Positions 2,102 to 14,528 of a stretch of 14,937 bases of DNA are shown here, one piece after another. Each line of letters starts with the position of its first letter. Position 1 is the stretch's first letter. The stretch lies in NCBI GenBank assembly GCA_000004985.1, contig GG738985.1, one strand, 5' to 3'. The notes below the pieces were generated by a model that saw only the letters and a program-made list of their open reading frames with translations, had not been told where the DNA came from and did not search any database. This DNA is from Naegleria gruberi (Eukaryota). The translations under genes were made by a program, and so were the position numbers.

Positions 2102-4969
2102 ATGAAAATTCCACAAGCGAAAATATTGTTTTCACACAGGGTTGACCCTCGAAAAGCAAAACTGTATTGTTCTAGTTGTAATAATTATGTGAAATCATCA
2201 ACTGATGTCAAAATTTGTAGTTCAAGTAACAAAAAATCTCATTTTCATAGGGCAATTAAAGTTAGGTGTAAAAATCAAGAATGTAAAAATTTTGATTCAT
2301 TTACCACCTTAATATGCCCCTTTTGTTCAAAGTCTTTTTCAAATGCAACCACTTTAAAGAAACATTTGAAAAGTGAGCACACAAATAGAAATAGTATATT
2401 CAATTGTTGTAATGTGATAACCTCTGAAGAAGCAACAATAATGGAACATATAATTGATAATCATCTTCCTCATATTGATTCATTAGATCAACTAACATCA
2501 AATTCTTGCAACCATTCCGTACAACAGAATGACAATAATATTAATTTTAGGCACGTTCCAGAAGGTGCACAAACAGATGAAAATGCTTATTGGGCAGTTT
2601 GGAAAATGAGCAAAAATTCAAAAACATTAATATTTGAGCCCAATAGTGATAAATCAGTTAAGGAAGTTGGTGATGAATTAGAAGAATCATATAAGAAAGT
2701 TATTGGAGATTTATTTGATTGTAGTTCAATAATTGAATCAAAACAAATTGAAAATAATATTGAAATTGAACATATTCATAATAGATTCGAATCAAAATAT
2801 GCTCCTTTCAAAGATGAATTTGAATGGAGTCTGTTCATGTTAGTTAAAAATGACAGATTGTCAAAAGTTCAGTATGAAAGAGTTGTTGAGATATTTGCTT
2901 TAAAGGATATTAATATTCCTTCTTATGATTCTATTTGTAGAAAACCTATTGATTTTCAAAAACCTATTTCACCACTAGATGATAATGATTTTGTTTATTA
3001 TAGTTTAAGGGAAACTATCAACAATCTGCTTGCAGATCCTTTTATTTCTAATAATATTTATACTAAAGATGGAGCTCTTAACTTCAATAGAGAACAACAA
3101 CCATTCAAAACAAATGGTTTCATGAAGATTGCCAACAAGATTGATTCAACTCCTATTGTATTTGCTCCATATTTAGATGAATATCAAAAGAATAGAACAG
3201 GTACAAGTCAAGTTACTGGATTTTATTTTACTTTATTCAACTTTGAACATAATTTTATGACAAGCTCAATGGAATCCATTTCATTACTTGGGAAATGTAG
3301 AAATATTAAGGGTTTATTTAAAATGTTGGAAATGTTTGTTAATGAATATAATGAAATTGAAGGGAAAACATTTATTGTGAAACATTCAGGTTTACAAAAA
3401 GAAGTATCTCTTCAATACGTATTAGGTCCTTGGATTTGGGATTCAGTTCAAAGATGGTTTACTTTATTCATGGAACAATATCTTTGCTCCAGATGTCATT
3501 GTCCAAAAAATATGTACAGCTCAACTCCAGATGAATTAATTGATTCATACAATGAGTTCTGTTTCAAGAATCCGTCTTTAAATTTGAAACAATTTATACC
3601 AAAGCCCTGTAAAGAACATGAAACGGAAACAGAACAAGAATTGCAAGTTGAAACTGATCTCCAAACGCACAATCCAAATGATATTGATGAAGAATGTAAT
3701 TATTTCAATCCAGAAACAGGAAAAGAAGATGATCAAGATGAAGAAAATCAAGAAACTGATAATATGGAAGATGAACCAGTTTTAGAACATACATTTAGCA
3801 TTAGAACTGTAGATGAAGCTGTTTCAATTCATGAAAGTATTGAAACAACACCTAAAAAGGAAAGAAAAGGGTTTAAATTATTATCAAAACAAGAAATTGA
3901 ATTAATTGATTCAAAATTTGATTACAATACTGTACAAAGAAAGCTCACTCAAATGAAAAAAAATGGTGTTACACTTGAAAAACAAGATAACCCATTGTAT
4001 AAGCTAAGAAATCATGACGTATTTAAGAATTCAACAGTTGACTTTATGCATGTGTTTGTTCAAGGTGAATTAAGAAGACATTTGACTGCATTAATAGAAT
4101 ATTTTTCATACCCAAGATTATTTTCTGATTTTCAGGATATTATAGATGAGTTTTATTTAAGTTCTGGAGAATCAATTAGAATGAGAGCATCAAATTATTT
4201 GAATTGTTCAGCTGACGAATTTTTAGAATTTGGTTTTTATAGTATTCCAATAATTTACAAGTTAATTTATTCAAATAAGGAATTGAAACATATTTCACAA
4301 GAAAAAAGAACTAGACATGTTGTTTGTTGGGTAGAACATATTGCATGGACGAGTATGTTATTAAGAAATGAGGTAACAATTCTTTCTATTGAAAAATCCA
4401 AATCTATTTTCCTCCAATTCAGAGAACATTATGTTGAATTATATCCAAACAAATGTCATAATGTTAATTTCCATTGGGTAACTCATTTATTTGAAGATTG
4501 TCAAGAATGGGGAAGTCCTAGATACTTTTGGGCTTTATTATTCGAATTGAAACACAAACTTTTTAAAAAGTTTAATGATGGATCGAATCATAAGGATGTT
4601 GAAAAGCGGGGTGCAGCATTTGAAAAGTTACATGTCAGTCTTAATGCTAAATATCCTTGGTTACGAAAGAAATCAAAACAATGGTTTAAAGCAATTGCTC
4701 CAAATCAATACTTAATGTTTAAACAAGAAGGAAAATTATACATAGGATGTATTCAATCACATACAAAAGATACAGTTAAATTTGGAAAAGTGTGGATTGT
4801 TACAAATGATTATCACCAAGTATGTCAATTCAGAAAATTGAATAGAGTGAAATCTTCCAATTTAAACGTTGATTGGAAAGATATCAATGCTAGATGCCAA
4901 GTTGTTTACATTGATTCCAAGTTTTACTTGAATCAATTTATGTTAATCATGAATTATTATAAATTTTAA
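2102..4969 (+). CDS. Intronless 955-aa ORF. It has an N-terminal C2H2-type zinc finger, an acidic central linker, and a C-terminal region resembling Tnp2/En-Spm-type (CACTA/KDZ-superfamily) transposases. It is a putative transposase or a transposase-derived gene.
   Basis: ATG at 2102 in an A-rich context (aaaaaaaaataaATG), then a single 2.9-kb ORF. The C2H2-like finger is LICPFCSKSFSNATTLKKHLKSEH. The block KDGALNFNREQQPF…FYFTLFNFEHNF…LLGKCRNIKG…CSRCHC follows the layout of the Tnp2-family catalytic region (DG…F, then a conserved C..C cluster). The C-terminal HNVNFHWVTHLFEDCQEWGSPRYFWALLFELKHKLFKK fits the DUF4218-like motif H..HL..D...GP...W..FE...K.L that I recall from Tnp2/CACTA transposases. 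There is a poly-acidic linker (DEECNYFNPETGKEDDQDEENQETDNMEDEP). The family assignment is from memory of these motifs, not from a search. Confidence 0.55.
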   Translation: MKIPQAKILFSHRVDPRKAKLYCSSCNNYVKSSTDVKICSSSNKKSHFHRAIKVRCKNQECKNFDSFTTLICPFCSKSFSNATTLKKHLKSEHTNRNSIFNCCNVITSEEATIMEHIIDNHLPHIDSLDQLTSNSCNHSVQQNDNNINFRHVPEGAQTDENAYWAVWKMSKNSKTLIFEPNSDKSVKEVGDELEESYKKVIGDLFDCSSIIESKQIENNIEIEHIHNRFESKYAPFKDEFEWSLFMLVKNDRLSKVQYERVVEIFALKDINIPSYDSICRKPIDFQKPISPLDDNDFVYYSLRETINNLLADPFISNNIYTKDGALNFNREQQPFKTNGFMKIANKIDSTPIVFAPYLDEYQKNRTGTSQVTGFYFTLFNFEHNFMTSSMESISLLGKCRNIKGLFKMLEMFVNEYNEIEGKTFIVKHSGLQKEVSLQYVLGPWIWDSVQRWFTLFMEQYLCSRCHCPKNMYSSTPDELIDSYNEFCFKNPSLNLKQFIPKPCKEHETETEQELQVETDLQTHNPNDIDEECNYFNPETGKEDDQDEENQETDNMEDEPVLEHTFSIRTVDEAVSIHESIETTPKKERKGFKLLSKQEIELIDSKFDYNTVQRKLTQMKKNGVTLEKQDNPLYKLRNHDVFKNSTVDFMHVFVQGELRRHLTALIEYFSYPRLFSDFQDIIDEFYLSSGESIRMRASNYLNCSADEFLEFGFYSIPIIYKLIYSNKELKHISQEKRTRHVVCWVEHIAWTSMLLRNEVTILSIEKSKSIFLQFREHYVELYPNKCHNVNFHWVTHLFEDCQEWGSPRYFWALLFELKHKLFKKFNDGSNHKDVEKRGAAFEKLHVSLNAKYPWLRKKSKQWFKAIAPNQYLMFKQEGKLYIGCIQSHTKDTVKFGKVWIVTNDYHQVCQFRKLNRVKSSNLNVDWKDINARCQVVYIDSKFYLNQFMLIMNYYKF

Positions 4970-5606: not shown

Positions 5607-8005
5607 CTAAAAAATGTGATCATCAGAATCATCATCATCGTCATCATCTTCATCATAGTAATTACCATATATATAACCCATATCAAGATCATCAGAATCA
5701 TCAGAGTTATAATCATCATCCTCATCAGATGTGTCTTCTTCCATGCTGTCTGTGTTAACCTGTACTTCTAATTGCTGTGTAATCCTTTTCAAAAGGGATG
5801 TCACATACAGGCTTCTCGACTCATTGAATGAAATGCAATCTGTTATAGCATCAAAAATGTCATCAACATTCAAATGTTTTGGTCTTACATCTAGATTGTG
5901 CTCTAAAATATTTAAAAAATTTGTTAAAACAAGCTCAGATAATACATCGGTATCATTTTCATAGAGGAATCCACAGGGACAGCCAAACTGGCCCATGNNN
6001 NNNNNNNNNNNNNNNNNNNNNNNNNNNNNNNNNNNNNNNNNNNNNNNATACGTCCCAACGTGATATGAGCGTCTTTAGATTTGGATTTGGCAAGAGATTT
6101 AACAATAACTTCTTCATTTCCTATTTCAGGATGAATACGAACACCCTTAAAAAATTTGACATCAAAAAAGAAGCTCACTACAATTGGTGATAACTCTCTA
6201 TCATTCTCAACTAAAAAACCCAACATTTCTGGAATTTGAAAATGCTTTGATATTTCATTCAATCGATCCTCGCATTCTTTTGTTTCAGGTAGATTGTTTC
6301 TATGGACAATATTTCCTAAATTTTTGAAAACCAACTTAGTAAGCTCTGTGTTCAACAAGGACTCAACCAATTTTTGAACAATATCCACTACTTCCAAAGA
6401 TTTAGAATCTATTGCTCCACGAACAATCTCATCAAGTGGACGTACAAGTGTCTCACTAAAAACAGAGGGCAGAGCAGGTATGTTCAGCAAGGCCTGAATA
6501 CTGTCGGCAACCTGTAAAAAATAGTCCTGCTCTTTCATACATTCAGCTACTTTTTGAATAACCTCGAGAGCTTTTTCTGAAAAAATACTTTCTGTACAAC
6601 AATACTTAAATGCTGCTGTGAATATTTTCAGATAATTAACTTTTGGTATTGGATTGAGAGAAAAGGCTTTCAAAATCTTGTGCATTATCTGAGAGTCGTA
6701 TGCATAATCAAATGTCAAGTGTTTGGCACCACAATTATATGCCTCCTCTCTTACTATTAAAGATTCCCTTTCTAGCAATGGCAATATAGCTTGAACAACA
6801 TTCTTACATCTAGAAAAATTTCTGTTGAAAACATGTTAGCAAGAAATAATATGATCCACTACTAACCTTTGATTATTACTCGGTGATGAAAGAGCTCTCA
6901 AACAATCTATTACTAATTCTTCATCAGAATATTTCAATAGTCTCGTTAAGAAGCTTGAAATGCTTTCAACAATATTATTATCACCTCTTTGATCAATTAT
7001 TTCCATTATAGAAATTATCTTTCTAACTCTCTTGTACTTTTCCTCTTTTGGAAATATTTTGATGCTTTCTTTTTCTATAACATTGATATCATATGAAACT
7101 TCCTGATAGAGAGTAAAGAAGGGATGTAAATCTTTGGCTGATTTATAAGCCTCACGAATTGAAGGTATTTTTGGATTGTCTATATGTTGATAAGCAGTCT
7201 TTCCTAATCTTGTTATACACATTGATCTTTGATCCTCATCTTTTGACTTGTAAATTAAATCTAATAATATGCAATCCATGTCATTCATATCAATATAACT
7301 ACCTTCCCAGTTAGATGCATTATAATAGGTAACTATTAGAGACTTGAAATGTTTTAAGAAATATTTGACCTGTAAACTTGGTACACCTGCTTCTGCAATC
7401 TTGATGGTTGCCACAAAGAGTGAAATCTTCCAATCAGGTATTTTCATTGATTGTGTGGTATAAAGTGTTATTGGCTGTTCAGTCTGACCTATTGCCACAT
7501 TCAAGAAATTTAACATGTTTGTTCCGAATGTGGAATCCAAACAATAGATATGCTTTAAAAATCCTCTTGCTGTGTTCTGGTTATTTTCTTCAAATAGGAA
7601 AGCATTCGGAAGTGCCTCGGCAGCCATCATACATATTTTGTAATTTACAATCATTTCATCATCACTTGATTCAATTTTAAAAGTATCATCTTCAGTACAG
7701 CCAAAACTCCACTCCTTTCCATTTGATACTGTTTTATACATTTCAATTAAATTTTGTACAAGTGTTTTACATGGCTCCTTTCGGTAAGAGGCTTGATTTA
7801 TCACTCTATTTCTCATCTCCTTTAAATGTTGTAATAATTCCTCTGATGTATATGTTGGCCAAGCCTCTGCCTTTTGATTTATATCCTGTTGAGTTTCATC
7901 AGAGTAATAATCAGAGTCATCATCACTCGAAGAATAATCCCGTCCATGCATATGATAACCAAACGAATGACCAAATCTTCGCACCAATCCCATATGATTG
8001 AACAT
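5607..8005 (-). CDS. Large (>800-aa) ARM/HEAT-like helical protein with Asp/Ser/Tyr-rich acidic N- and C-termini. It is one gene made of track ORFs 6836-8005, 5924-6784 and 5607-5996, joined by a 45-nt intron (6822-6866) and interrupted by the 50-N gap at 5998-6047.
   Basis: ATG at 8005 (MFNHMGLVRRFGHSFGYHMHGRDYSSSDDDSDYYSDE…). ORFs 6836-8005 and 5924-6784 are in the same frame. They are separated by a single TAA at 6836-6838, and the following 17 codons have no stop. The 5924-6784 ORF begins with TTG (the track printed it as M), so it has no start of its own. Removing the intron GTTAGTAG…CTAAC…CAACAG (6822-6866, 45 nt = 15 codons, with the TAA inside it) joins …SSPSNNQ to RNFSRCKNVVQAILPLLERESL… in frame. 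The ORF then runs into the gap. Below the gap, ORF 5607-5996 continues as a coding-looking sequence and ends …DDDYNSDDSDDLDMGYIYGNYYDEDDDDDDDSDDHIF*. The frame across the gap cannot be known. Confidence 0.6.
5998..6047. other. Scaffold gap of 50 N, inside the large minus-strand gene.
   Basis: A run of exactly 50 n. All five N runs in the window are exactly 50 long, which is a fixed-size gap placeholder, so the true length is unknown. Confidence 0.95.
6822..6866 (-). other. Spliceosomal intron, 45 nt (GTTAGT…CTAAC…ACAG), which contains the in-frame TAA that splits the two track ORFs.
   Basis: Minus-strand sequence GTTAGTAGTGGATCATATTATTTCTTGCTAACATGTTTTCAACAG. A branch-point-like CTAAC lies ~18 nt before the AG. 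Its length is a multiple of 3, which fits the fact that the flanking ORFs share a frame. Its size matches the other introns in the window. Confidence 0.6.
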
Positions 8006-8088
8006 GTTGTATTTTCTTTTGTTTGATTTTTTTCAAATTTTAAAAAAAAAATTAAGCGCGAAAATATTGTTATTATATTAACAAAATA

Positions 8089-8421
8089 TTATGTACTGTC
8101 TCGGAAGTGAATTGATCGTTGTCGGAATGGTTTTTCANNNNNNNNNNNNNNNNNNNNNNNNNNNNNNNNNNNNNNNNNNNNNNNNNNAGCAACTAAAACG
8201 AATTTAGTTCTTCTAGAATCATCATCAACAGCAACAGCACGATAAATACCAAACTTGACATCAGATGGACCGAATGAACCCAAGAATTCATCCCAATCAC
8301 CAGTACCAGTGGCATCCATGATCAAACCAGTCTTTTCTGGGACGAAAGTGAACCATTTAATGGATTCAGTCTTCAAGGATTCCCAAGCAGCATCAATTTC
8401 TGGAGCAACGTTAGTGGACAT
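8089..8421 (-). CDS. Coactosin-like ADF-H (actin-depolymerising-factor homology) domain protein. The C-terminal part is lost in the 50-N gap at 8138-8187, so the 3' end is uncertain.
   Basis: ATG at 8421 in context aaaaaaaaacacaagaacaaaATG. The product is MSTNVAPEIDAAWESLKTESIKWFTFVPEKTGLIMDATGTGDWDEFLGSFGPSDVKFGIYRAVAVDDDSRRTKFVLVA…. This matches the coactosin/COTL1 pattern (ID…A…W.TF…G.G…F…DV…S.R.KF.L..W) as I remember it. The track ORF start at 8454 (MFSHKKKHKNK) is probably 5' UTR. Below the gap the frame is arbitrary. One frame ends at TAA 8073-8075 (…SDNDQFTSETVHNILLI*) and another at 8089. Confidence 0.7.
   Translation of the reverse strand: MSTNVAPEIDAAWESLKTESIKWFTFVPEKTGLIMDATGTGDWDEFLGSFGPSDVKFGIYRAVAVDDDSRRTKFVLVAXXXXXXXXXXXXXXXXXEKPFRQRSIHFRDST
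8138..8187. other. Scaffold gap of 50 N, inside the coactosin-like gene.
   Basis: A run of exactly 50 n. Confidence 0.95.
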
Positions 8422-8892: not shown

Positions 8893-9711
8893 CTATTGAT
8901 GTGAAGGATAAAACTTGACAAAACATCCAATGGCATCTTGTGAAATTTGTAATGGATTGAAAGTTGTTTGTAAATATCCTTCAATACTATTGTTAATACT
9001 ACTATTACTATTAATACTATTATCACTACTGTTAGTAGTATGAGAAAAAATCATTTCACAATTTAAATTTTCCAAAATTGCAATTCTAGCATTCCAAAAT
9101 CTACCATGTGAATGTTCAATAATTGGTGCCTTATTAGGATGGTCAATTGATGGTGTATCAATTCCAATAAGGAGAAGATTAGGTAATTCTCTTGATAAAT
9201 ATTCAGCTGCACTTGGATGAAAATGTGCAAAATCATTGGTCCATTCTTGTTCATCACTTGGTTGATTGGATCGAGTCTTGATGATACATCTGAGAATTTT
9301 ATCTTTTGGAATTTTACTCTTTTCAATTGCATTTCGAAACATTTCTTCTGAAATTTCCAAATTATTCTTCAATTCTTCCACTAAATTTAATACTAAACAA
9401 GCTCCATTATATTGAAGAGTGTGAAAATATTCCACAATTGGATTCTTTTCAAAATGTTTAGGTTGATCAGCATGTGTTCCAGCATGACTATTCGAAAGTA
9501 TGACATTTCTAGTAACAATACAAACTCCATTACATGAAGATGAAACATCACACGATTGATTCATTAGACATGATGAACACAATGATTTTACATTTTCCTT
9601 CTCTAATTTTAATTCCTTCTCTATTAAATCATCCACTGAAATAAATTGAGCATACGGAGTGTAATCATGATATGGAAATGAAGCATATTTAGCACACGGA
9701 GAAACAGTCAA
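8893..9711 (-). CDS. Cyclase-family protein (kynurenine formamidase / arylformamidase-like, Pfam Cyclase fold). The true N-terminus is probably in an upstream exon.
   Basis: It contains the family signature HxGTHxDxPxH as SHAGTHADQPKHF, plus a downstream IGIDTPSIDHP and a C-terminal Asn/Ser-rich tract. The track ORF begins with TTG (printed as M). The frame stays open upstream to a TGA near 9838 with no in-frame ATG (only an out-of-frame ATG at ~9835). So the initiator Met is likely supplied by an upstream exon or a mis-called base. Confidence 0.7.
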   Translation of the reverse strand: MTVSPCAKYASFPYHDYTPYAQFISVDDLIEKELKLEKENVKSLCSSCLMNQSCDVSSSCNGVCIVTRNVILSNSHAGTHADQPKHFEKNPIVEYFHTLQYNGACLVLNLVEELKNNLEISEEMFRNAIEKSKIPKDKILRCIIKTRSNQPSDEQEWTNDFAHFHPSAAEYLSRELPNLLLIGIDTPSIDHPNKAPIIEHSHGRFWNARIAILENLNCEMIFSHTTNSSDNSINSNSSINNSIEGYLQTTFNPLQISQDAIGCFVKFYPSHQ

Positions 9712-10294: not shown

Positions 10295-10344
10295 NNNNNN
10301 NNNNNNNNNNNNNNNNNNNNNNNNNNNNNNNNNNNNNNNNNNNN
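10295..10344. other. Scaffold gap of 50 N, in an AT-rich intergenic region.
   Basis: A run of exactly 50 n. Confidence 0.95.
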
Positions 10345-10984
10345 TTATTAATTATGATGAATATCAAACAGCTGTTTTCAATTATGAATTGATGGCAATC
10401 TACACTTTGAAACAAAATCCGTTAATTTAGTACTAATTTAACCTGTTCCGAGTATTAAAACAGCACAACTGCTTCATTGAATTGAACACTTACAACATGT
10501 TCAATTTCTTTGACGTCAAAGCTTAGCTCCTCACAAATTTGAACATCAACAACAATTCGGAATTTGGAATTAATTGAAGTTCAGTCAATTAACCAGCGAT
10601 ATATTTCATTAATCATAGCTTAACATTTTCAACAGAGAGACTGCTGACATCTTGGCCAACAAGATTATCTCGGCAAAATCAATACCATGTGTTGATGTTG
10701 AACAGTGTCATCTCCAACAACATAATGTCAGCACAATCAAACAACTACCGTAGTTTAGATTAGTCTAGAACTTGAATAATCATTGGAAACTACTTCCAAT
10801 TTGTTAGAATTTAGGTTCAATTGTCCTTTCATCACTTGGTTTCTAAAGAATTGTGCACAGTATCACTTTTCAAGTCAAATAAATAAACTTGTTCCTTCTT
10901 TCGTCCAGAATCGCCATTTTAAATTGTAAAATCACAAGCTTTGACGTCTTTCACACACTTTAAAAAATTAAAACAACGTAAGCT

Positions 10985-11381
10985 ATGAAATTCAAGAGGA
11001 ATAAAACGTTAGACGAAACCGTTGTGTCTCCTTCCTCGTCAACACCAACCAATACATCATCTTCTTCTACATCGTCATCCTCTTCAAAGAAAAGACCTAG
11101 CAGTGTAAATAGTGACTTTGATGTTTCGAATTATGCCATTGTTTTTGAAGAAATGATGGATTCGAAAGAAACTCGTGATTTATTCTATGAATATTTGCAG
11201 CTTAATCGTTCGGTGGAATCTCTCATGTTCATGAATCAAGTTGAAGAATATCGTGCGGAATATAACAAGAAATTCGAGAATGTTATTTGTGGTGAAAATG
11301 TTGATAAAAAGCAAGNTTCATACCAAGATTGTAGAAATCTATTCGAAAGCAAGGGGTATTCTTGATCAATTTGTGTTCAAG
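10985..11381 (+). CDS. RGS (regulator of G-protein signalling) domain protein, 5' part. It has a Ser/Thr-rich N-terminus and the RGS domain begins ~residue 50. It is truncated by the gap at 11382-11431, and there is an apparent frameshift at the ambiguous base 11316.
   Basis: ATG at 10985 (MKFKRNKTLDETVVSPSSSTPTNTSSSSTSSSSSKKRPSS…). The next part, FEEMMDSKETRDLFYEYLQLNRSVESLMFMNQVEEYRAEYNKK, fits the RGS-box N-terminal consensus (F..ML.S..G…F..FL..EFSEENL.FW.ACEE(F/Y)KK). After the n at 11316 the RGS-like continuation (…IVEIYSKARGILDQFV, compare the canonical KAKKIYEEFI) is in the +1 frame. The frame-1 stop at 11363 therefore looks like an artefact. Confidence 0.65.
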
Positions 11382-11431
11382 NNNNNNNNNNNNNNNNNNN
11401 NNNNNNNNNNNNNNNNNNNNNNNNNNNNNNN
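11382..11431. other. Scaffold gap of 50 N, separating the 3' ends of the RGS gene (+) and the kinase gene (-).
   Basis: A run of exactly 50 n. Confidence 0.95.
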
Positions 11432-12539
11432 GAAGTAGAAGTATCCAATGTTAATATTTGATACAATGTCACGCCAAGTGAATACATGTCAGTGGCAAAT
11501 CCATAAGGTTGATTCAATAGTAATTCTGGTGAAATGTAGCATAGAGAACCAGCATAGGTATTTTTGGTAGTGTGTGCATTCTCTTTGGCAATACCAAAAT
11601 CTCCCAAAACAACCTCAATCAAATTCGAGTCAATATCCCTTCTTCTGATAAAGATGTTTTGAGGTTTAATGTCTCGGTGCATGACTTGTTGGGAATGCAC
11701 ATAGTTAAGAGCTTGGGTGGTTTGAGAAATGATTTTCCAAATAATTGGCAGTGGAATAGTTGCGGCTGATTTGATGGATTCACTAATGATGGACATGACA
11801 TCTCCCTTATACAGTTCCATGACAATGCAAAACATGGAAGAATGCTCGGTATCGACTTGGAAAGTGTCATAAATCTTTACCACATTCTGGTGATCCAATT
11901 GCTTGACAAGATTGGCTTCATTTTCAGCATCTTGTGTTGGTTTCTGAATTGAATTTTTACCTGTAGCTATGGTTTTAATTGCCACATTTGGTTCCTCTGG
12001 TGTATTCAACACTTGGCATTCAAAAATGATACCAAATCCTCCCTCTCCAATAATTCGAATAATTTTGTATCGATCATCAAGAGTCATTCCCAAATATTGT
12101 TCATATCTTCCATTGCCTGCTCTTTGTGGAAGAATTGAATCGACAGTATTCTTGACTCTCTTCAATTTAATCAGGTTGAGTTCATCATCCAATAATTGTA
12201 AATCCTTCATGTCCACAACATCCACAAATTCCTCAAAATCTGGATCATAGTATTGTAATTCGTAACTACCTCGAATTCCACATCTGAGCTTGGTTTTTTT
12301 CACAAAATCTTGAACACTCTCGGAATAATTGACAACCATTTTGAATCTCTTACGATACAGATTCAACATGTTATCTATATATTCCACTTCAAACTTGTAA
12401 CAGAGATAGGTTTCGGATTTGTTAAGGAGCTTTCGTGCCCAAATAATCATGTCTGAATTTTCAGTTGTTTCTGCAACAGAGGCCAAATCCATTCCATTCT
12501 TTTTAATATCCACATCAGCTCCCTTCTCAACTAGGATAA
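11432..12539 (-). CDS. Ser/Thr protein kinase, NEK/NimA-like, with an N-terminal ankyrin-repeat segment. Both ends run into 50-N gaps (12540-12589 and 11382-11431), so the CDS is incomplete at both ends.
   Basis: Kinase subdomains are visible: IGEGGFGIIFECQV (Gly loop), VAIKTI (VAIK), HRDIKPQNIFI (catalytic loop, NEK-like), DFGIAK (DFG), GSLCYISPELL (APE-like) and DMYSLGVTLYQIL (subdomain IX). An ankyrin-like stretch, ILVEKGADVDIKKNGMDLASVA, lies upstream. The track ORF 11377-12606 contains X runs at both ends. Confidence 0.85.
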
Positions 12540-12589
12540 NNNNNNNNNNNNNNNNNNNNNNNNNNNNNNNNNNNNNNNNNNNNNNNNNN
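12540..12589. other. Scaffold gap of 50 N, inside the 5' part of the kinase gene.
   Basis: A run of exactly 50 n. Confidence 0.95.
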
Positions 12590-12792
12590 GTCAGATGCAA
12601 AATCAAATTAACTTCAAATAAATGTTGTGTTGACTGTACAAATTATAGAAGAAGTATCAAAAATCCTTGCGTAAAATTATTTCAACTCCTGCTCCCGCAG
12701 ATTCTCCGTTGTAACAAATTTTACTCCGCAAACACAGTGTGCATAAATCAGGCGCAAGCATTGAACATCTCTCGATAACACTCAACAAAAAA

Positions 12793-13563
12793 ATGCAAAC
12801 ACTCCACCTTGCCATCATTGCTGTCTTGTTAATGACCTTGGCCGTCATCTCTCATGGCCAAAACTCCAAGATTAACATAAAGACTCCAAAGTATACTTGC
12901 TGTATGCCTCGTGCTCACACTGTCCACGCCAAAGTTACTAGAATGGGACTTTCCAACTGTAATCCATCAAATGGTGATTGTCACTTTGATGGGGTGAAGA
13001 TTATTCGTGAAAAACACATGCCAGATTTCTTCCATCGTCGTTATCGTTTAGATTTACAAATTGAAGTGAATGGAAAAGTGGTGAGTGATGAAACTACATT
13101 AGGTTTCATGGATACTTATCCATCTAACTTTGGTGTTGAATATGTTTTTAACAAAACTACTTGTTCCTGTAAACAATTGACTAGACAAGCTGCTTACTTG
13201 ATGGTTTCATGTGTTGATGCTGATTATCAATTGGAAGGACATGTTGATATCGGAATTAAGAGTGAAGATCATATTAAATCCCAGAAATTCATTCGTACAA
13301 AGCAATTGAACTCCAATACTACACAAATTGATGTGATGGTCGTTCAACCAGTTCAAACTAAACCCCAACCACTTCCATATCCAGATCCATATCCATCAGA
13401 TTATAATTGTGCTATTGTTTATTCCGATACTAGAATTGAAAGTAGAGACACCAAAGGTCAATTGAATAATTTGGAAACTATTTCAAGTGAATGTTGGGAC
13501 TTTTTGCCTTTTAACACTGATAGTGATTATGTGCTTCCATCTTATTGTCCAAAATGTCATTAA
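12793..13563 (+). CDS. Secreted cysteine-rich protein of unknown family, 256 aa, with an N-terminal signal peptide and a Pro/Tyr-rich PYPDPYP segment.
   Basis: The ATG at 12793 is preceded by aaaaaaa. The product MQTLHLAIIAVLLMTLAVISHGQ is a typical signal peptide. Cysteines occur in pairs (CC, C..C, CSC, CPKCH), which suggests disulfides. The track ORF starts at 12739 but has no ATG there. The stop is at 13561-13563. Confidence 0.6.
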   Translation: MQTLHLAIIAVLLMTLAVISHGQNSKINIKTPKYTCCMPRAHTVHAKVTRMGLSNCNPSNGDCHFDGVKIIREKHMPDFFHRRYRLDLQIEVNGKVVSDETTLGFMDTYPSNFGVEYVFNKTTCSCKQLTRQAAYLMVSCVDADYQLEGHVDIGIKSEDHIKSQKFIRTKQLNSNTTQIDVMVVQPVQTKPQPLPYPDPYPSDYNCAIVYSDTRIESRDTKGQLNNLETISSECWDFLPFNTDSDYVLPSYCPKCH

Positions 13564-14528
13564 ATTCTTTTAATCCTTGTAGTATGTTAATATTCATCAC
13601 GTGTTGAAAATGTTGTTGTTTTATTGTTAAAACAATGTTTTCATTCATCTGATGATAAATATGACGTTTATTATCTATTTAAATAGTAGTACTAAAAGAC
13701 TTGTAGTAGTACATGTTGAGTTATGGTCCATGTACTTTTTCAAAATTAACATGTACCTATCCCTATCAAACTTGACCAAAATTGCTCATAGAAAGTTCTC
13801 CTACTATTGACCATTCCAAACAATACTATATTGACAGTTTTCCGACTTGTCCAATAGATACAGTGGATGATGAATTTAATGAAAAATAAATTAATTCCAC
13901 AAATACTATTATATTGATAATGAAACAATAATAGTATTGATGATGGCGAATGATCGGATGATGGAACACCAGCTTGTGATTTTCCATCATGATGAAAAAT
14001 AAAATCCAATTTCATAATGATACTCCACTAATAAAAATTACTATTATTACTACTATTCAGATGATGTTGAGATGGTGATGTGAAAGTTTGATAGCTTCAA
14101 GATGTGAAACCACTCCTAAAATCAGCATTACCACAAATTACATTGTTGATTTTAAAAATATTTTTTATAAATATTTTTAATGCCCCGAATAACTTGTTTG
14201 GTCCGTGTTTTGGTCGTTTTGGTGACCAAAGCTTGAATTTTATTTTATTTGTGATCGATTTTGTAAATTTTTCATTCTGACCACCAACTTTGATCGATTT
14301 TTAATTTTAAATTCAGAGCAAAAATGGGACCATACTGTTCTTCTTCGTGATTACTATCAAAACTTACATACGCAGCAGAGGGATACGAATGGATTTACTT
14401 GATAAAAGTATCAAGTTAACACTAATAACATGAACAATAGATGAACAGTAACAATGATTGTTATTTACACATGAACAGCTATCAACAATCCAACCCGACT
14501 GCTGTTCATCATGATGTGTGATGATTCA

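What the first reader, a model, noticed from the sequence alone, without database searches (positions are those of the whole stretch)
10985..12606. RGS-domain gene and NEK-like kinase gene converge on an assembly gap; the domains of RCK-type RGS-kinases are split across opposite strands here
In dictyostelids an RGS domain and a Ser/Thr kinase domain occur in one polypeptide (RCK1-type). Here an N-terminal RGS-box protein (+ strand) and an ankyrin-plus-NEK-like kinase (- strand) read toward each other. Each is cut off by the same 50-N gap (11382-11431), so neither 3' end is visible. Either they are two independent convergent genes whose ends are missing, or the scaffold join at the gap is wrong in orientation or order. 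Both genes also show other damage: a frameshift at the n at 11316, and a second gap in the kinase 5' region.
Basis: partly seen in the sequence, partly recalled or inferred. Interest (0 to 1): 0.5.

Follow-up and report, generated by a model that had tools for sequence, protein, structure and literature searches.

The report
Misplaced contig splits an RGS gene
The apparent head-on meeting of an RGS gene and a kinase gene is an assembly artefact: a 1.1-kb piece of a kinase gene from another Naegleria gruberi scaffold sits in a sequencing hole in the middle of an ordinary 525-residue RGS gene.

Summary
The sequence features are real, but they do not reflect biology. The window is a whole 14,937-bp scaffold of Naegleria gruberi NEG-M, built from six short contigs joined by 50-N gaps. 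It is not a dictyostelid.

- **The RGS ORF (10985-11381, +) is not cut short.** Its last six codons and stop (SDAKSN*) lie at 12591-12611, beyond the kinase contig.
- **Two gap-free references show one uninterrupted 525-aa gene.** One is a 3.4-kb metagenome contig (L001), 97-98% identical to both flanks. The other is the NEG-M protein EFC38968.1, the neighbour of EFC38969.1 on a 304-kb scaffold. Both lie next to the same downstream gene, and neither has a kinase.
- **The reference gene pairs its RGS domain with a different second domain.** The C-terminal domain is predicted to have a START (lipid-binding) fold.
- **About 1,170 bp of the RGS gene is missing from the window.** That space holds gap + a 1,108-bp contig + gap (1,208 bp).
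- **The 1,108-bp contig belongs elsewhere.** It is 365/368 aa identical to residues 1502-1869 of EFC40529.1, a 1,954-aa ankyrin-kinase on a different 342-kb scaffold. That protein has no RGS domain.
- **The n at 11316 is a spurious extra base.**

There is no convergent gene pair and no split RCK-type RGS-kinase. Interest is low.

The parts
10345..10984 (+). Upstream region of the RGS gene, in the same contig as its 5' part
   Evidence: Colinear with L001 23-655 as part of the 97.0% identical block L001 23-1046 = window 10345-11381.
10985..11381 (+). 5' part of the RGS-START gene (codons 1-131), allele of NAEGRDRAFT_73291 / EFC38968.1
   Evidence: RGS Pfam hit at 21.4 bits. After deleting the n, it is identical to EFC38968.1 residues 1-129 apart from a 2-Ser indel. 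97% DNA identity to L001.
11316..11316 (.). Spurious extra base call (n) that causes the apparent frameshift
   Evidence: L001 has no base at this position (alignment A1). Removing it restores the EFC38968.1 reading frame.
11382..11431 (.). 50-N placeholder gap at the left junction of the misplaced contig
   Evidence: All five gaps in the window are exactly 50 N, so they carry no size information.
11432..12539 (-). Misplaced 1,108-bp contig: an internal fragment of a giant ankyrin-repeat Ser/Thr kinase gene (allele of EFC40529.1, residues 1502-1869)
   Evidence: 365/368 aa identical to EFC40529.1 residues 1502-1869. That protein is 1,954 aa and sits on a 342,059-bp scaffold. Pkinase at 154 bits. 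No similarity to the L001 sequence that belongs here.
12540..12589 (.). 50-N placeholder gap at the right junction of the misplaced contig
12590..12611 (+). 3' end of the RGS-START gene: last six codons (SDAKSN) and the TAA stop
   Evidence: Identical to L001 2212-2233 (alignment A2). Matches the C-terminus of EFC38968.1, residues 520-525.
12793..13563 (+). Downstream neighbour NAEGRDRAFT_54674 (EFC35916.1), a 256-aa protein with a hydrophobic N-terminus that looks like a signal peptide. It anchors the locus.
   Evidence: Exact match to EFC35916.1. 253/256 identical to EFC38969.1, the gene next to EFC38968.1 on the 304-kb scaffold.

Best explanation
The window is a small, low-coverage, redundant scaffold of the Naegleria gruberi NEG-M draft assembly. 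It is most likely the second haplotype of a region that is assembled properly on a 304-kb scaffold.

At this locus there is one + strand gene for a 525-residue protein with an N-terminal RGS domain and a C-terminal START-fold domain. The gene for a 256-residue protein follows it. In this scaffold the central ~1,170 bp of the RGS gene was never sequenced.

The scaffolder put an unrelated 1,108-bp orphan contig into that hole. The contig is an allelic copy of an internal part of a 1,954-residue ankyrin-kinase gene that lives on a different scaffold. Both of its junctions are 50-N placeholders.

The 'convergent RGS and kinase genes' are therefore a scaffolding artefact. The frameshift is a spurious base call at a low-quality contig end.

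Shown: colinearity of both flanks with gap-free references, the identity and home of the kinase piece, and the extra base. Inferred: the cause of the misplacement (an erroneous or chimeric mate-pair link into a gap of fitting size) and the haplotig status.
For: (1) Source: ORF 12793-13560 is exactly EFC35916.1 of N. gruberi, on a contig of 14,937 bp, which is the window length.

(2) L001 comes from an independent assembly. L001 23-1046 matches window 10345-11381 at 97.0%, and L001 2212-3415 matches window 12590-13784 at 98.2%. The 1,165 bp between them continue a single 525-aa ORF, L001 656-2233.

(3) The same genome has EFC38968.1 (NAEGRDRAFT_73291, 525 aa) and EFC38969.1 (NAEGRDRAFT_73292). 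They have consecutive accessions and locus tags on one 304,373-bp scaffold.

(4) The window encodes EFC38968.1 residues 1-129 and 520-525. The missing 390 aa equal 1,170 nt, against a filler of 50+1,108+50 = 1,208 nt.

(5) The kinase contig is 365/368 identical to EFC40529.1 residues 1502-1869. That protein is 1,954 aa and lies on a 342,059-bp scaffold. This is the same ~99% level as the neighbouring gene pair (253/256).

(6) The kinase contig has no similarity to the true middle of the RGS gene.

(7) EFC40529.1 has Ank and Pkinase domains and no RGS. EFC38968.1 homologues in N. fowleri, N. lovaniensis and N. gruberi have no kinase domain.

(8) Naegleria is described as a heterozygous diploid (PMC9928731), which fits a leftover-haplotype scaffold.
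Against: No read-level or mate-pair data could be inspected, so the reason the scaffolder placed the contig here is inferred. The DNA of the 304-kb and 342-kb scaffolds was not retrievable, so comparisons with NEG-M itself are at protein level only. A real haplotype-specific insertion or replacement cannot be formally excluded, because both junctions are unsequenced.
Confidence: 0.93

Rival explanations
1. Real structural variant. In one NEG-M haplotype a fragment of the ankyrin-kinase gene was inserted into the RGS-START gene, or replaced its middle, disrupting that allele.
For: The contig was placed here by the assembler, presumably on some linking evidence. The kinase piece differs at 3 of 368 residues from EFC40529.1, so it is a distinct copy rather than the same reads.
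Against: Both junctions are unsequenced gaps. The insert almost exactly fills the missing stretch (1,208 vs ~1,170 bp), as expected when a scaffolder fits a contig into a gap. The 1% divergence equals the allelic level seen for the neighbouring gene. The kinase reading frame is fully intact over 368 codons. Neither reference shows it.
Confidence: 0.04
2. Two independent convergent genes whose 3' ends are hidden in the gap at 11382-11431.
For: The two ORFs do read toward the same gap.
Against: The RGS gene's stop codon lies at 12609-12611, beyond the kinase contig. The kinase piece corresponds to residues 1502-1869 of a 1,954-aa protein. The ~4.5 kb of coding sequence that should lie upstream of it is replaced by the RGS 3' end and an unrelated + strand gene starting 250 bp away.
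Confidence: 0.01
3. The kinase contig is merely inverted. Flipped, it would give one + strand RGS-ankyrin-kinase gene, an RCK1-like RGS-kinase.
For: The contig is bounded by gaps on both sides, so its orientation is unconstrained by sequence. RGS-kinase fusions exist in Dictyostelium (Rck1 and ARCK-1; PMC1420674).
Against: The gap-free references fill this interval with a START-fold domain, not ankyrin repeats and a kinase. The kinase piece matches a 1,954-aa protein without an RGS domain at 99%. No homologue of the RGS protein carries a kinase domain.
Confidence: 0.01

Closest known systems
Misplaced or interleaved small contig in a redundant haplotype scaffold of a heterozygous Sanger-era draft assembly
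   Same: Short contigs are joined by fixed 50-N gaps. There is ~99% protein identity to genes on larger scaffolds of the same genome. The foreign piece has unsequenced junctions on both sides and fits the hole.
   Different: Nothing distinguishes it, but read-pair evidence could not be examined.
Dictyostelium Rck1 / ARCK-1 (RGS-domain protein kinases, TKL group; PMC1420674)
   Same: An RGS box and a protein-kinase domain both occur within about 1.6 kb of this window.
   Different: Here they lie on opposite strands, belong to two different genes from two different scaffolds, and are juxtaposed only by the assembly. The organism is a heterolobosean, not a dictyostelid. The kinase resembles NEK7 and CDPK-type kinases rather than TKL.
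Naegleria RGS-domain protein family (N. fowleri encodes 79 RGS-domain proteins beyond the 7TM-RGS class; PMC9283941)
   Same: The real gene at this locus, an allele of EFC38968.1, has a Pfam RGS domain at 30 bits. It has homologues labelled 'RGS domain-containing protein' in N. fowleri and N. lovaniensis.
   Different: This subfamily has a conserved C-terminal domain of about 230 residues predicted to have a START fold. Pfam does not recognise it, and it was not found described in the literature search.
START / StAR-related lipid-transfer domains (CERT, STARD10, StAR, STARD5)
   Same: The AF2 model of the C-terminal half matches START structures (Foldseek E ~1e-9, target TM-score 0.63-0.73).
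   Different: Sequence identity is only 10-15%, there is no Pfam START hit at E<=1, and the model is of moderate confidence (pLDDT 60). This part of the gene is absent from the window itself.

Membership tests
RCK1-type RGS-kinase | RGS domain and protein-kinase domain in one polypeptide | tested here: not met
   The full-length RGS protein (525 aa) has no kinase domain. The full-length kinase protein (1,954 aa) has no RGS domain. The two genes are on different scaffolds.
RCK1-type RGS-kinase | Kinase domain of the TKL group (Dicty5 subfamily; PMC1420674) | tested here: inconclusive
   The best solved-structure matches are NEK7 and CDPK1 at 96 bits each, then DCLK1, CaMKII and ULK1. No formal kinome classification was run.
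RGS domain (PF00615) | Sequence match above the Pfam gathering score | tested here: met
   L001 525-aa protein: 30.0 bits against a cut-off of 23.9, residues 52-209 covering profile 2-114 of 117. The window fragment alone scores 21.4 bits, below threshold because it is truncated. There are weak PDB matches to RGS17 and GAIP.
RGS domain (PF00615) | GTPase-accelerating activity on a G-alpha subunit | not testable with these tools
   This needs a biochemical assay.
START domain | Helix-grip fold (beta-sheet wrapped around a long C-terminal helix) | tested here: met
   The AF2 model has strands across 266-431 and a helix at 439-469. Foldseek finds CERT, STARD10, StAR and STARD5 at E ~1e-9, probability 1.0, target TM-score 0.63-0.73. 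Model confidence is only moderate.
START domain | Sequence match to Pfam START (PF01852) | tested here: not met
   RGS was the only Pfam hit at E<=1.
NEK kinases | Kinase domain closest to NEK family members | tested here: inconclusive
   NEK7 and Cryptosporidium/Toxoplasma CDPK1 tie at 96 bits. A few metagenome hits are named NIMA-related kinase, at 33-38% identity over 43-57% of the query.
Eukaryotic protein kinase (PF00069) | Pfam match and catalytic motifs | tested here: met
   154 bits. The translation shows GEGGFG, VAIK, HRDIKPQN and DFG.
Scaffolding artefact (misplaced contig) | Flanks are colinear with an uninterrupted reference, the insert has its own home locus elsewhere, and both junctions are unsequenced | tested here: met
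Scaffolding artefact (misplaced contig) | No consistent read pairs or long reads support the junctions | not testable with these tools

The most novel reading that the evidence does not exclude
The gene that the artefact interrupts belongs to an undescribed family that appears restricted to Naegleria. In this family an RGS box is fused to a START-fold, lipid-binding-type domain that sequence profiles miss. Such a protein could couple lipid or sterol sensing to switching off G-alpha signalling. This concerns the reference gene (EFC38968.1), not the RGS/kinase juxtaposition, which is an artefact. A much less likely novel reading is that the kinase fragment really is inserted in one haplotype (about 0.04).
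Probability: 0.55. Interest if true: 0.3.

Novelty: not a real feature. Interest (0 to 1): 0.05.

Why it matters
It matters mainly as a caution. Small gap-ridden scaffolds in the N. gruberi NEG-M draft can contain foreign contigs. Domain neighbourhoods read across 50-N gaps, such as the 'RGS next to kinase' seen here, should not be taken as biology or used for gene models. The two affected genes are intact and ordinary elsewhere in the same assembly. The only mildly interesting by-product is the predicted RGS-START architecture of the real gene.

Tried and rejected
- **Word-indexed protein searches with the two fragments.** These gave only distant kinases (31% identity or less) and nothing for the RGS piece. 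All listed hits were 630 aa or shorter, so the tool appears not to return proteins much longer than the query. That would explain why it missed the 1,954-aa and 525-aa parents.
- **Alternative genetic code (TAA/TAG as sense).** ORFs bounded by TGA only are not meaningfully longer. The one in-frame stop, between ORFs 6836-8032 and 5924-6835, is explained by a GT..AG intron.
- **Inverted-contig hypothesis (an RGS-ANK-kinase fusion on the + strand).** Rejected.
- **Exact look-ups of N. gruberi proteins in the contig collection.** None is on record, so the DNA of the 304-kb and 342-kb scaffolds could not be compared.
- **Single-sequence AlphaFold of the 525-aa protein.** Unusable at pLDDT 35. It was redone with a 9-sequence alignment.
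- **The afdb50 fold library.** Unavailable.
- **The N. gruberi genome paper (Cell 2010).** Not held in the library.

Full report
**What is in the sequence**

The region reads as the first-stage reader described. An ATG-initiated + strand ORF starts at 10985 and runs to the 50-N gap at 11382-11431. It has a truncated RGS match: PF00615 at 21.4 bits, covering profile positions 2-49 of 117, just under the 23.9-bit cut-off. On the - strand, 11432-12539 is one open frame. It holds the tail of an ankyrin repeat, a linker, and a protein-kinase domain (PF00069, 154 bits, profile 1-192 of 263). GEGGFG, VAIK, HRDIKPQN and DFG are all visible, and the frame breaks off in subdomain IX/X at the gap. A second 50-N gap lies at 12540-12589 and a lone n at 11316. 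The window has five gaps of exactly 50 N. It is therefore six short contigs (1.0-6.0 kb) strung together, and gap length carries no information.

**Source**

The neighbouring ORF 12793-13560 is, residue for residue, EFC35916.1 (NAEGRDRAFT_54674) of Naegleria gruberi. It is recorded on a contig of 14,937 bp, which is exactly the window length. The window is therefore a complete small scaffold of the NEG-M draft genome, not a dictyostelid. The same 90% cluster contains EFC38969.1 (NAEGRDRAFT_73292), which is 253/256 identical and sits on a 304,373-bp scaffold. This suggests the window is a redundant copy of that region, probably the second haplotype. Naegleria is described as a heterozygous diploid (PMC9928731).

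**The decisive comparison**

The third member of that cluster led to L001, a gap-free 3,419-bp contig from an unrelated ENA metagenome assembly.

- L001 23-1046 matches window 10345-11381 at 97.0%.
- L001 2212-3415 matches window 12590-13784 at 98.2%, on the same strand and in the same order.
- The 1,165 bp between those blocks simply continue the RGS reading frame. L001 656-2233 is a single 525-aa ORF.
- Its last codons and stop (SDAKSN, TAA) are identical to window 12591-12611.

The same 525-aa protein exists in NEG-M itself as EFC38968.1 (NAEGRDRAFT_73291). It is on the 304-kb scaffold, and its accession and locus tag immediately precede those of EFC38969.1. With the n at 11316 deleted, the window encodes EFC38968.1 residues 1-129 exactly apart from a 2-Ser microsatellite-type indel. 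It also encodes residues 520-525. Residues 130-519 are missing, which is 1,170 nt. The n is an extra base relative to L001, and the last bases of that contig carry one more indel, as is typical of low-quality contig ends.

**What the kinase piece is**

An exhaustive HMMER search found P0127 as the top hit (E 1e-239). This is EFC40529.1, 'Serine/Threonine kinase [Naegleria gruberi]', a 1,954-aa protein on a different scaffold of 342,059 bp. BLASTP gives 365/368 identities to its residues 1502-1869, and the three differences are conservative. That is the same ~99% level as the other allelic pair.

EFC40529.1 has ankyrin repeats (about 1250-1514) and a C-terminal kinase domain (1658-1952). It has no RGS domain. 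N. lovaniensis has orthologue-like proteins of 1,926 and 2,049 aa.

The window contig is thus an internal fragment of a gene of about 5.9 kb. The ~4.5 kb that should lie upstream of it is instead the RGS 3' end and an unrelated gene. The contig has no similarity to the sequence that truly belongs in this interval.

**Explanation**

The central ~1.17 kb of the RGS gene was not sequenced in this low-coverage scaffold. An orphan 1,108-bp contig from the other allele of the ankyrin-kinase gene was slotted into the hole. The filler is 50+1,108+50 = 1,208 bp.

Shown:
- both flanks are colinear with two independent gap-free references;
- the insert's home is elsewhere in the genome;
- both junctions are unsequenced placeholders.

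Inferred:
- the proximate cause, which would be a spurious or chimeric mate-pair link accepted because the contig fits the gap;
- the haplotig status of the scaffold.

I put 0.93 on this. A real haplotype-specific insertion gets about 0.04. The convergent-gene reading and the inverted-contig (RGS-ANK-kinase fusion) reading get about 0.01 each. contradict both of those directly.

**What the real RGS gene encodes**

The full-length protein passes the Pfam RGS threshold (30.0 bits, residues 52-209). It also weakly matches RGS17 and GAIP in the PDB. Its homologues are N. fowleri, N. lovaniensis and N. gruberi 'RGS domain-containing proteins' plus a few metagenome proteins. None has a kinase domain.

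Their most conserved part is a C-terminal region of about 230 residues (alignment A3). A single-sequence AlphaFold model was useless (pLDDT 35). A model built from the 9-sequence alignment reached pLDDT 60. Its C-terminal half matches START lipid-transfer domains such as CERT, STARD10, StAR and STARD5 (Foldseek E ~1e-9, target TM-score 0.63-0.73). Pfam finds no START match.

The locus therefore most likely encodes an RGS-START protein. This is a prediction of moderate confidence, and it concerns sequence that is absent from the window.

**Comparison with known systems**

Dictyostelium Rck1 and ARCK-1 do combine RGS and TKL-group kinase domains (PMC1420674). The defining feature, both domains in one polypeptide, is tested here and not met. 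'NEK-like' is not specific either, because NEK7 and CDPK1 tie as best solved-structure matches. RGS genes are abundant in Naegleria, with 79 beyond the 7TM-RGS class in N. fowleri (PMC9283941). One more is unremarkable.

**Verdict**

Interest is low (0.05). The only residual curiosity is the predicted RGS-START architecture of the gene that was interrupted.

Noticed in passing
L001 656-2233 (window 10985-11381 plus 12590-12611 are its ends): The real 525-aa RGS protein (EFC38968.1) has a conserved C-terminal domain predicted to adopt a START lipid-transfer fold (Foldseek E ~1e-9 to CERT, STARD10 and StAR). Pfam does not detect it. Homologues were found only in Naegleria species and a few metagenome proteins.
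   Followed up: partly
window 5800-8005, - strand: A multi-exon gene. ORFs 6836-8032 and 5924-6835 are in one frame, separated by a stop that lies inside a GT..AG intron at about 6812-6868. The gene is also cut by the gap at 5998-6047. No Pfam domain was found.
   Followed up: partly
window 8188-8421, - strand: The N-terminal 78 residues of an ADF-H/cofilin-type actin-binding protein (PF00241, 29 bits), cut off by the 50-N gap at 8138-8187. The sequence after the gap does not obviously continue it.
   Followed up: partly
window 8893-9711, - strand: An ORF with a putative cyclase domain (PF04199, E 1.5e-10; kynurenine-formamidase-like family).
   Followed up: no
window 2102-4969, + strand: An intron-less 955-aa ORF with a single C2H2 zinc finger (residues 71-93) and no other recognisable domain. 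The exact sequence is not in the protein collection, so the published gene model probably differs.
   Followed up: no
window 5998-6047, 8138-8187, 10295-10344: Three further 50-N gaps join contigs of 2-6 kb. Given the misplaced contig at 11432-12539, the order and membership of these other contigs are also unverified.
   Followed up: no
tool behaviour (vs 35, 24): The word-indexed protein search returned no protein longer than about 1.7 times the query. It therefore missed the 99%-identical 1,954-aa and 525-aa parent proteins, which the exhaustive search and the exact look-ups then found.
   Followed up: partly
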